Below are positions 5,781-6,097 of a DNA stretch of 15,323 nt, piece after piece. The stretch's first letter is position 1; each line of letters begins with the position of its first letter. The position numbers and the translations under genes were made by a program. The notes under the pieces are model-generated. The model was not told the DNA's origin. It did no database searches and saw nothing but the letters and a program-made list of their open reading frames with translations. Source of the DNA: a virus; UHGV virus genome UHGV-1764124. One strand, 5' to 3'.

Positions 5781-5889
5781 AATTCACCCGTATAGAAACC
5801 ATTTTCATGACGGTATGAGAGTATACCTTTAAGGTAATACCGTCACCTGTACCGACGAAAAATATGGTGTATAGTGAATAGAAATGAAT

Positions 5890-5926
5890 ACATAAAAACA
5901 AAAACCCTCTGTTTTTACAGAGGGTT
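5890..5926 (-). terminator. Rho-independent terminator ending the lysis operon
   Basis: On the minus strand: stem AACCCTCTG / CAGAGGGTT with loop TAAAAA, followed by TTTGTTTTT. Lies between the Rz stop (6098) and the int start (5780). Confidence 0.7.
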
Positions 5927-6097
5927 AAATTAGTATCTGAATAGGAATGAGTTGCTATGAGTTAGCTGTTAATCATTCCCACTCAATTATTTACGATAAC
6001 CATAACCAATTGAGTGATAACATTTTTCCAAATCTCAATTTTTCCCGTACCGTTTTATATACCGTCACCGGAAATCAGTACCATGAAAAATGCCATG

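What the first reader, a model, noticed from the sequence alone, without database searches (positions are those of the whole stretch)
5781..6097. Candidate attP region upstream of int with ATACCGTCAC repeats and a 9-bp inverted repeat
The non-coding region between the lysis-operon terminator and int contains ATACCGTCAC twice in direct orientation (5838-5847, 6059-6068) and once inverted (5808-5816). It also has the inverted repeat ACTCAATT ... AATTGAGT (about 5982-6017) and an ATTACC-like half-palindrome (5822-5838). Arm-type repeats flanking a core are the hallmark of attP for tyrosine integrases. If so, the window represents the unintegrated phage-form junction. A possible int promoter (GTGACG-N16-TATACT on the minus strand) overlaps these sites.
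Basis: inference. Interest (0 to 1): 0.5.

Follow-up and report, generated by a model that had tools for sequence, protein, structure and literature searches.

The report
Known attP site of a phiV10-like phage

Summary
The interpretation, attP of a tyrosine integrase, is correct. The window is a Uetakevirus, 98.8% identical here to vB_EcoP_ZX5.

**Core.** The 17-bp core AATCATTCCCACTCAAT lies at 5971-5987 and is identical to the 3' end of E. coli guaA. In 569 E. coli genomes the homology breaks exactly there. It is the attP core shown by PCR and sequencing for ZX5 (PMC9782041).

**Arm repeats.** ATACCGTCA(C) occurs 7 times against 0.56 expected. It flanks the core on both sides as 12-bp tandem pairs plus one inverted copy. 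The epsilon15 GenBank record already annotates four of these as predicted integrase sites. They sit at fixed distances from the guaA stop in 30 related guaA-linked integrase loci from Alpha-, Beta- and Gammaproteobacteria. Two copies inside int show invariant synonymous positions.

- The terminator lies inside attP, not at its edge.
- The proposed promoter has a 15-nt spacer, not 16.
- The target is guaA, not a tRNA.

A second repeat (TGAATAGRAATGA, two copies) flanks the terminator. The terminator stem matches the host's own guaA terminator.

**Verdict.** Real, ordinary and already known. The family-wide phased layout is a modest addition. No protein binding has been shown.

The parts
4530..5780 (-). 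int: tyrosine integrase, 416 aa, GTG start. It has an arm-binding domain (residues 2-87), a central core-binding domain and a catalytic domain.
   Evidence: ORF list. Pfam PF13356, PF22022 and PF00589. Annotated as integrase in phiV10, epsilon15 and ZX5.
5468..5476 (-). Degenerate arm-type copy inside int (TGTCGGTAT on + strand; int codons 102-104, CAT ACC GAC).
   Evidence: Third codon positions of codons 102-104 are invariant in 26/26 relatives. Repeat D14. An equivalent site at +304 in relatives reads ATACCGTCAG or TTACCGTCAC.
5512..5521 (+). Arm-type repeat ATACCGTCAC inside int (codons 87-90, R-D-G-I).
   Evidence: Conserved in 10 of 11 phages. Third positions of codons 88-89 are invariant in 26/26, and of codon 87 in 23/26. 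Annotated as an integrase binding site in the epsilon15 record.
5602..5611 (+). Arm-type repeat ATACCGTCAC inside int (codons 57-60).
   Evidence: Invariant in 11/11 phages. Third positions of codons 57-59 are invariant in 26/26, although the residue at codon 57 varies. Annotated in the epsilon15 record.
5808..5816 (-). Inverted arm-type repeat (TGACGGTAT on + strand). It lies 159 nt after the guaA-type stop and overlaps the expected int transcription start.
   Evidence: An inverted copy is present at +155 to +171 in 24 of 30 related loci.
5820..5846 (-). Only sigma-70-like candidate for an int promoter: GTGACG (5846-5841), 15-nt spacer, TATACT (5825-5820). It is embedded in the arm-site cluster.
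   Evidence: One search finds it as the only candidate with at least 8/12 matches between the terminator and int. It is not reported by the standard scan, which requires a 16-18 nt spacer. Its function is inferred only.
5823..5831 (+). Degenerate arm-type copy ATACCTTTA (7/9).
   Evidence: The same position (+144) holds TTACGGTAT in the Klebsiella prophage L022. Conserved block in the phage alignment.
5837..5846 (+). Arm-type repeat ATACCGTCAC, 130 nt after the guaA-type stop. This is the most conserved arm position in the family.
   Evidence: Invariant ATACCGTCA in 11/11 phages. A direct copy at +128 to +131 in 26 of 30 related loci. Annotated in the epsilon15 record.
5849..5857 (+). Degenerate arm-type copy GTACCGACG (6/9), 12 bp from the previous site. 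It forms a tandem pair with it.
   Evidence: The +118/+130 tandem pair with 12-bp spacing appears in relatives. TGTACCG is conserved in the phages.
5875..5887 (+). Accessory repeat copy 1, TGAATAGAAATGA (CTATTC on the int strand at +94).
   Evidence: Repeat D9, 12/13 identical. The CTAT[CT][GC] word is fixed at +21/+31/+84/+94 in relatives, at 10.4 versus 0.51 per kb. Offset of 63-64 nt.
5903..5926 (-). Intrinsic terminator hairpin: 10-bp stem, 4-nt loop, U-tract. It ends the lysis operon in the phage form and guaA transcription in the prophage form.
   Evidence: -16.1 kcal/mol, z = -4.2. Annotated as a terminator in phiV10 and epsilon15. The stem is identical to the guaA terminator stem of E. 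coli MG1655 and Klebsiella.
5938..5950 (+). Accessory repeat copy 2, TGAATAGGAATGA (CTATTC on the int strand at +31).
5971..5987 (.). attP core, AATCATTCCCACTCAAT. It is identical to attB, which comprises the last four guaA codons, the stop and 2 nt, read on the minus strand. Crossover is confined to 5977-5987.
   Evidence: attP/attB/attL/attR comparison. Homology breakpoints at 5987 and 5971 in E. coli genomes. ZX5 experiments. Klebsiella junctions share only TCCCACTCAAT.
5980..6016 (.). Inverted repeat CACTCAATTATTTA / TAACCAATTGAGTG (9-bp perfect parts at 5980-5988 and 6008-6016).
   Evidence: I5. The outer arm is only partly conserved: AATTGA is kept, and G6014 is C in 5 of 11 phages.
6007..6019 (-). 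IHF-consensus-like site TATCACTCAATTG (12/13). It is an exact WATCARNNNNTTR match in YDC107_2, SPN1S and PAT1.
   Evidence: An IHF site is annotated at the equivalent place in the epsilon15 record. It is a consensus match only.
6047..6055 (+). Degenerate arm-type copy GTACCGTTT (6/9). It forms a tandem pair with the next site, 12 bp away.
   Evidence: TACCGTTTTATATACCGTCAC is invariant in all 10 phage-form sequences.
6059..6068 (+). Arm-type repeat ATACCGTCAC on the Rz-proximal arm, 72 bp from the core.
   Evidence: Annotated as an integrase binding site in the epsilon15 record.
6098..6580 (-). Rz-like spanin (DUF2514), the last gene of the lysis operon. It bounds attP on the right.
3034..3282 (+). 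AlpA-family small DNA-binding protein, the candidate excisionase (recombination directionality factor).
   Evidence: Pfam PF05930. Homologues lie directly downstream of int in 20 of the related loci. The role is inferred.

Best explanation
The interval 5781-6097, with extensions into the first ~310 nt of int, is the attP site of a phiV10/epsilon15-type temperate podophage.

**Proposed mechanism.**
- The integrase is heterobivalent. Its catalytic and core-binding domains act on the 17-bp core (5971-5987), which is identical to the 3' end of host guaA. Strand exchange occurs within TCCCACTCAAT (5977-5987).
- Its N-terminal arm-binding domain is predicted to bind the ATACCGTCA repeats on both arms. 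These are 12-bp tandem pairs at 5837/5849 and 6047/6059, an inverted copy at 5808, and more distal copies inside int. DNA bending is probably helped by IHF near 6007-6019.
- Integration places the phage between guaA and yfgI. The phage re-supplies the last guaA codons, the stop codon and an equivalent terminator hairpin (5903-5926), so guaA stays intact. The terminator also shields int from guaBA or lysis-operon read-through.
- Because of that terminator, int must be transcribed from within the arm-site cluster. Int binding there would then repress its own gene.
- A second repeat pair flanking the terminator (5875-5887 and 5938-5950) is the likeliest docking site for the AlpA-family directionality factor.

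**Shown:** the position of the core, the junctions, the conservation and the phasing.
**Inferred:** which protein binds which repeat, the promoter, and autoregulation.
For: **Core and junctions.**
- attP and attB share exactly 17 bp. The CE10 prophage junctions are the two reciprocal hybrids.
- 569 of 5426 E. coli genomes carry the element. The int-side match ends at 5987 next to guaA. The Rz-side match starts at 5971.
- ZX5, 98.8% identical, has this 17-mer shown as attP/attB by PCR and Sanger sequencing. That paper states the same for phiV10 and epsilon15.

**Integrase.** It has Arm-DNA-bind_3, central and catalytic domains.

**Arm repeats.**
- Enrichment is 7 observed against 0.56 expected.
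- The repeats are among the invariant blocks in an 11-sequence alignment spanning E. coli, Salmonella, Enterobacter and Klebsiella phages.
- 30 related integrase loci (47-91% aa identity) sit downstream of guaA.
- In those loci TGACGGTAT-type sites occur at fixed offsets of +118, +130, +155 to +171 (inverted), about +195 and about +265. Density is 13.8 per kb against 0.44 per kb elsewhere.
- Synonymous positions inside the two in-gene copies are invariant in 26/26 sequences. Only 11 of 200 third positions are invariant overall.
- The epsilon15 GenBank record annotates the equivalent four sites as integrase binding sites.

**Terminator.**

**Accessory repeats.**

**AlpA.** It co-occurs with int across the family.
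Against: - No binding or footprint data exist for any repeat in this phage group. The epsilon15 annotation is itself a prediction.
- The in-gene copies lie 370-510 bp from the core, far for a lambda-type intasome. They may serve regulation rather than recombination.
- The copy at 5259-5268 is not conserved.
- The promoter candidate has a suboptimal 15-nt spacer and fails the standard scan.
- IHF matches number 4 against 1.3 expected at one mismatch, with none exact in this window.
- No convincing pair of core-type inverted repeats around a 6-8 bp overlap could be recognised by eye.
Confidence: 0.93

Rival explanations
1. The ATACCGTCA repeats are operators for transcriptional control of int, bound by Int itself or another regulator. 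They would not be architectural elements of the recombination complex.
For: The 5808 and 5837 copies bracket the only promoter-like element upstream of int. The in-gene copies are too far from the core for a compact intasome. Integrase genes whose promoter overlaps attL are autoregulated in KplE1 (PMC2951348).
Against: A tandem pair also lies on the other arm (6047/6059), 270 bp upstream of the promoter region and beyond the terminator, where it cannot regulate int. Positions are phased relative to the core or guaA stop, not relative to the int start, which moves by about 100 bp between lineages. The two roles are not exclusive.
Confidence: 0.1
2. The repeats inside int simply reflect a repeated R-D-G-I peptide motif and codon preference. 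They would not be DNA sites.
For: Both copies encode RDGI in the same frame. The motif lies in the conserved arm-binding domain.
Against: The third positions T, C, T are invariant in 26/26 sequences, while other Asp and Gly codons vary freely; for example codons 23, 24, 33 and 40 show 65-77% agreement. At codon 57 the residue changes (R, C, I, P, A, S) but the T is kept. More distant relatives that keep similar protein sequence lack the DNA motif there and instead carry extra copies upstream of int.
Confidence: 0.05
3. The repeat pattern is chance, and the true attachment site lies elsewhere in the phage.
For: None found.
Against: Shuffle statistics, breakpoints in hundreds of genomes, direct junction comparison and published experiments.
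Confidence: 0.01

Closest known systems
attP of phages vB_EcoP_ZX5, phiV10 and epsilon15 (genus Uetakevirus)
   Same: [quoted passage not shown] The interval is 98.1% identical to ZX5, 95.3% to phiV10 and 81.6% to epsilon15. The epsilon15 record already annotates four integrase sites, three IHF sites and the terminator at equivalent places.
   Different: Nothing essential differs. This window is a mosaic relative, with no identical record in the collections searched, and it carries an endosialidase tailspike. The published work mapped the core only. The arm sites are predictions.
epsilon15 cluster of the IntSXT subgroup of arm-binding tyrosine recombinases, including GIsul2 and CMGI-3 type islands that target guaA
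   Same: The integrase is homologous and the target is the guaA 3' flank (PMC8138268). The GIsul2 core GAGTGGGA (PMC9376610) lies within the crossover interval deduced here (5977-5987). An alpA gene accompanies int.
   Different: Those elements are genomic islands or ICE-like elements, whereas this is a podophage. In this enteric phage lineage int starts about 100 bp closer to the core, and the distal arm sites lie inside the int reading frame.
Lambda attP (P-O-P' with arm-type sites, IHF and Xis sites)
   Same: It shares the logic of a heterobivalent integrase: a short core identical to attB, arm repeats unrelated to the core on both sides, and bending-factor and directionality-factor sites in between.
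   Different: - The integrase clade is different.
- int is transcribed away from attP from within one arm, rather than towards it.
- The target is a protein-coding 3' end.
- A terminator hairpin sits inside the arm.
- None of the protein-DNA contacts has been shown here.
KplE1 / P4-type recombination modules, where attL overlaps the integrase promoter and int is negatively autoregulated
   Same: int is adjacent to the attachment site and divergent from it. The arm repeats overlap the only promoter-like element. The directionality factor gene is separate from int (PMC2951348).
   Different: Those integrases target tRNA genes. Here the promoter itself is only a weak consensus match (15-nt spacer), and autoregulation is untested.

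Membership tests
attP of a heterobivalent (arm-binding) tyrosine integrase | [quoted passage not shown] | tested here: met
   Pfam PF13356 (residues 2-87, E = 3.9e-20), PF22022 and PF00589.
attP of a heterobivalent (arm-binding) tyrosine integrase | A short core identical between the phage and the bacterial site, with prophage junctions being the reciprocal hybrids | tested here: met
   17-bp identity at 5971-5987. CE10 attL and attR are hybrids of the window and MG1655 attB. Breakpoints in E. coli genomes. Experiments on ZX5.
attP of a heterobivalent (arm-binding) tyrosine integrase | Repeated arm-type sequences, unrelated to the core, on both sides of the core | tested here: met
   Copies at 5808, 5837 and 5849 on one side and at 6047 and 6059 on the other. 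Conserved and phased across the family.
attP of a heterobivalent (arm-binding) tyrosine integrase | Integrase physically binds the arm-type and core-type sites | not testable with these tools
   Needs gel shift or footprinting. No such data were found in the papers searched.
attP of a heterobivalent (arm-binding) tyrosine integrase | Sites for accessory bending and directionality factors within the arms | tested here: inconclusive
   There are IHF-consensus matches at one mismatch only. A conserved, phased second repeat pair exists, and an AlpA gene is present, but the binder is unknown.
epsilon15 cluster of guaA-targeting integrases (IntSXT subgroup) | Integrase sequence homology to epsilon15 Int | tested here: met
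   82.9% nucleotide identity over int and flanks to epsilon15. Relatives at 47-91% aa identity were retrieved with this protein.
epsilon15 cluster of guaA-targeting integrases (IntSXT subgroup) | Integration at the 3' end or flank of guaA | tested here: met
   E. coli prophages abut guaA. 30 relatives lie directly after a GuaA C-terminus ending ...TIEWE*. Literature.
Modules with an integrase promoter inside the attachment site and negative autoregulation (KplE1 IntS type) | An integrase promoter located within the arm and overlapped by recombination-protein sites | tested here: inconclusive
   The upstream terminator implies an own promoter between 5902 and 5781. The only candidate has 9/12 matches and a 15-nt spacer, and it overlaps arm sites. 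No transcription start data are available.
Modules with an integrase promoter inside the attachment site and negative autoregulation (KplE1 IntS type) | int expression repressed by Int and/or the directionality factor | not testable with these tools
   Requires reporter fusions or RT-qPCR.

The most novel reading that the evidence does not exclude
guaA-targeting integrases across Alpha-, Beta- and Gammaproteobacteria may share a rigidly phased attachment-site blueprint that has not been described.

- Arm sites sit at +118/+130/~+165 (inverted)/+195/+265 from the guaA stop.
- Two pairs of lineage-covarying accessory sites sit at +21/+31 and +84/+94, flanking an element-supplied terminator hairpin. 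In enteric elements this hairpin copies the stem of the host's own guaA terminator.
- In the enteric phage lineage the distal arm sites have moved into the int reading frame, where they are held by selection on synonymous positions.
Probability: 0.45. Interest if true: 0.35.

Novelty: already known. Interest (0 to 1): 0.15.

Why it matters
For annotation, it fixes attP, the integration target (guaA 3' end) and the phage-form status of this window. It shows the first-stage reader can recognise attP from repeats alone.

Biologically it is a textbook arrangement. The phage rebuilds the end and the terminator of an essential-pathway gene, so lysogeny costs the host nothing.

The family-wide phasing of arm and accessory sites, and the arm sites embedded in the integrase gene, give a ready set of predictions. 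They could guide anyone wanting to use this integrase, which recognises a target conserved across Proteobacteria, as an integration tool.

Tried and rejected
- **tRNA target.** No tRNA gene is in the window. The core is a guaA 3' end.
- **Structured RNA in the interval.** No Rfam family came near its gathering score.
- **Standard sigma-70 scan.** No site in 5400-6400.
- **The 9-bp inverted repeat as the core-type site pair.** Rejected for three reasons:
  - Its arms are 19 bp apart.
  - One arm is outside the attP/attB identity.
  - The outer arm varies among phages without compensation.
- **Core-type inverted repeats around a 6-8 bp overlap within 5971-5987.** Searched by eye; nothing convincing.
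- **The copy at 5259-5268 as a functional site.** Rejected, because codons 171-175 vary freely.
- **The original epsilon15 paper (PMC2698709 / PMID 17825342).** Not held in the library. Its claims are cited only through the GenBank record and later papers.
- **Source record of the window.** No identical record in the phage or E. coli collections.

Full report
**1. What is in the sequence**

The interval 5781-6097 is the non-coding gap between the Rz-like spanin gene (6098-6580, minus strand) and the integrase gene (4530-5780, minus strand).

- ATACCGTCAC is exact at 5837-5846 and 6059-6068. Its inverted 9-mer TGACGGTAT is at 5808-5816.
- With at most one mismatch there are 7 matches in the 15.3-kb window against 0.56 expected. 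None of 200 shuffles reached that number. One of the seven, at 10693-10702, lies far from attP and is not counted among its sites.
- The inverted repeat is CACTCAATT (5980-5988) and AATTGAGTG (6008-6016), extendable to 14-nt arms at 86%.

**2. What the window is**

The region is 98.8% identical to Escherichia phage vB_EcoP_ZX5, 95.8% to phiV10 and about 83% to Salmonella phage epsilon15, all genus Uetakevirus. No record in the phage or E. coli collections is identical over the whole window, so this is a mosaic relative.

Neighbouring genes fit that genome type:
- RecT/YqaJ recombination genes
- an AlpA-family protein
- PerC
- an MT-A70 methylase
- holins, endolysin and spanins
- an endosialidase tailspike

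**3. Where the core is**

- A 1.3-kb query across the gap hits 569 of 5426 complete E. coli genomes. In nearly all of them the match stops at window position 5987, directly next to guaA.
- Matches to the other side start at exactly 5971.
- I aligned the window with the empty site of MG1655 and with both ends of the CE10 prophage. attP and attB share exactly 17 bp, AATCATTCCCACTCAAT (5971-5987), and the two prophage ends are the reciprocal hybrids.
- On the minus strand the block reads ATT GAG TGG GAA TGA TT. These are the last four codons and the stop of guaA (GuaA ends ...TIEWE).
- The ZX5 paper identified the same 17-mer as attP and attB by PCR and Sanger sequencing of attB, attL and attR. 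It states that the same sequence is the attP of phiV10 and epsilon15 (PMC9782041).
- In a Klebsiella prophage of the same group, host and phage share only TCCCACTCAAT. Strand exchange must therefore occur within 5977-5987. This agrees with the GAGTGGGA crossover proposed for the related island GIsul2 (PMC9376610).

**4. The repeats as arm-type sites**

Conservation among phages: I aligned ten phage-form sequences, including the window, and one Klebsiella prophage junction. They come from E. coli, Salmonella, Enterobacter and Klebsiella hosts. The repeat copies are among the invariant blocks, while the spacers vary. The alignment also reveals degenerate partners 12 bp from the strong copies. 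Each arm therefore carries a tandem pair:
- 5837-5845 with 5849-5857
- 6047-6055 with 6059-6067

The int-proximal arm also has an inverted copy at 5808-5816 and a weak copy at 5823-5831.

Conservation across the wider family: searching one genome per species with the Int protein returned 47 loci.
- 30 of them, at 47-91% amino-acid identity and from Alpha-, Beta- and Gammaproteobacteria, lie immediately downstream of a guaA gene ending ...TIEWE*.
- In these, TGACGGTAT-type sites (at most 1 mismatch) occur at 13.8 per kb between guaA and int, against 0.44 per kb elsewhere.
- They fall at nearly fixed offsets from the guaA stop: +118, +130, +155 to +171 (inverted), about +195 and about +265.
- The window's copies fall on the +118, +130, +144 and +159 positions.

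The epsilon15 GenBank record already annotates the equivalents of 5512, 5602, 5837 and 6059 as integrase binding sites. These are predictions; I found no binding data.

**5. Copies inside int**

In the enteric lineage int starts at +195, about 100 bp closer to the core than in distant relatives. The +195 and +265 sites are absent. Instead there are copies inside the reading frame, at codons 57-60, 87-90 and, degenerate, 102-104.

I ran a codon-aware comparison of 26 sequences.
- Third positions of codons 57-59, 88-89 and 102-104 are invariant in 26/26 sequences.
- Only 11 of the first 200 third positions are invariant overall.
- At codon 57 the residue varies but the T is kept.

This points to selection on the DNA itself. 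The copy at 5259-5268 shows no such conservation and is probably fortuitous. Whether the in-gene copies join the recombination complex or act only on int expression cannot be decided here.

**6. Other elements in the interval**

*Terminator.* A strong intrinsic terminator on the minus strand (5903-5926; -16.1 kcal/mol, z = -4.2) lies between the core and int, not at the edge of the interval. In the phage form it ends the lysis operon. In the prophage it follows guaA. Its 10-bp stem, AACCCTCTGT/ACAGAGGGTT, is identical to the stem of the host's own guaA terminator in E. coli MG1655 and in Klebsiella. Integration therefore restores both the coding end and an equivalent terminator.

*Second repeat pair.* TGAATAGAAATGA (5875-5887) and TGAATAGGAATGA (5938-5950) flank this hairpin 63 bp apart.
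- In the family the word CTAT[CT][GC] occupies exactly +21, +31, +84 and +94 on the int strand, at 10.4 versus 0.51 per kb.
- Lineages lacking that word repeat a different word at the same offset. The best offset is 63-64 nt in 22 of 31 sequences (the 30 loci plus the window).
- This lineage-specific covariation at constant spacing suggests a second, element-encoded binding protein.
- The AlpA-family gene (3034-3282) is the obvious candidate. Homologues lie directly downstream of int in 20 of the related loci. This assignment is inference.

The match is 12/13 here and exact in three related phages. The repeat cannot be the core-type site pair, because one arm lies outside the identity block and the arms are 19 bp apart.

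*Promoter.* The only sigma-70-like element between the terminator and int is GTGACG-N15-TATACT (5846-5820, minus strand). The spacer is 15 nt, not 16, and the standard scan does not report it. It overlaps the arm sites, so its conservation cannot be separated from theirs.

**7. Phage form or prophage**

The contiguous Rz-attP-int arrangement is the unintegrated form. Five E. coli chromosomes also contain it. In FDAARGOS_1301, guaA and yfgI are 82.6 kb apart with int next to guaA and Rz next to yfgI. That is two prophages in tandem with an attP-type junction between them. The window therefore comes from a free or circular phage genome or from a tandem lysogen.

**8. Mechanism**

The best-supported reading is a lambda-type reaction.
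- Int bridges arm repeats and core within a bent attP and exchanges strands with the guaA 3' end inside 5977-5987.
- The result is a prophage between guaA and yfgI.
- AlpA, probably bound at the terminator-flanking repeats, would direct excision.
- Int bound at 5808-5857 would repress its own promoter, as in KplE1 and P4-type modules.

Shown: the core position and the junctions. Inferred from sequence, domain content and conservation: all protein-DNA assignments.

**9. Comparison and novelty**

This is the same attP as in ZX5, phiV10 and epsilon15. The integrase belongs to the described epsilon15 cluster of guaA-targeting integrases (PMC8138268). The finding is therefore already known.

What may be new is descriptive:
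- the fixed phasing of arm and accessory sites across three proteobacterial classes
- the host-like terminator within the arm
- the arm sites held inside the int reading frame

I rate the finding low in interest (0.15). The broader blueprint deserves perhaps 0.35 if it proves both real and undescribed.

Noticed in passing
window 5903-5926; L005 about 3400-3440; L063 3073-3100: The phage terminator hairpin inside attP has the same 10-bp stem (AACCCTCTGT/ACAGAGGGTT) as the host's own guaA terminator in E. coli MG1655 and Klebsiella pneumoniae. The surrounding spacer is unrelated. Either the phage arm derives from host DNA, or the host's downstream region is a remnant of such an element.
   Followed up: partly
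window 5875-5887 and 5938-5950; loci L014-L052, +21/+31/+84/+94 after the guaA stop: A second repeat pair flanks the terminator at a constant 63-64 nt offset. The word is CTAT[CT][GC] in most lineages and a different word in others, always repeated at the same offset. The binder is unknown; the AlpA-family protein is the candidate.
   Followed up: partly
NZ_CP070111.1 4835180-4917885 (L061, L062): E. coli FDAARGOS_1301 carries two copies of this prophage type in tandem at guaA (82.6 kb between guaA and yfgI). This creates an internal attP-type junction. Four other chromosomes show the same three-place pattern.
   Followed up: partly
L063 3120-3145 and L013 1085-1105: In Klebsiella, guaA ends GAG TAA instead of GAA TGA, so phage and host share only 11 bp (TCCCACTCAAT). 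Integration there changes the guaA stop region to the phage version.
   Followed up: yes
window 8202-11321 (-): The tailspike is a full endosialidase (Pfam End_beta_propel E = 1e-233, with the chaperone domain). This implies specificity for K1 polysialic-acid capsule, unlike phiV10 (O157) or epsilon15.
   Followed up: no
loci L028-L052, just downstream of int; window 3034-4432: In most relatives an alpA homologue lies directly after int in convergent orientation. In this phage three genes (PerC-like, MT-A70 methylase, DUF1382) sit between them.
   Followed up: no
NZ_CP079771.1 and NZ_CP079768.1 (hits H33, H34): Two 41,027-bp records deposited as E. coli plasmids (duck isolates) carry int and the DUF2514 spanin gene, about 90% identical over the first 60% of the query. 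They look like circular genomes of a related phage assembled as plasmids.
   Followed up: no
L004 3261-4474: In E. coli CE10 the yfgI gene next to the Rz-side prophage junction is interrupted by an IS3-family element.
   Followed up: no
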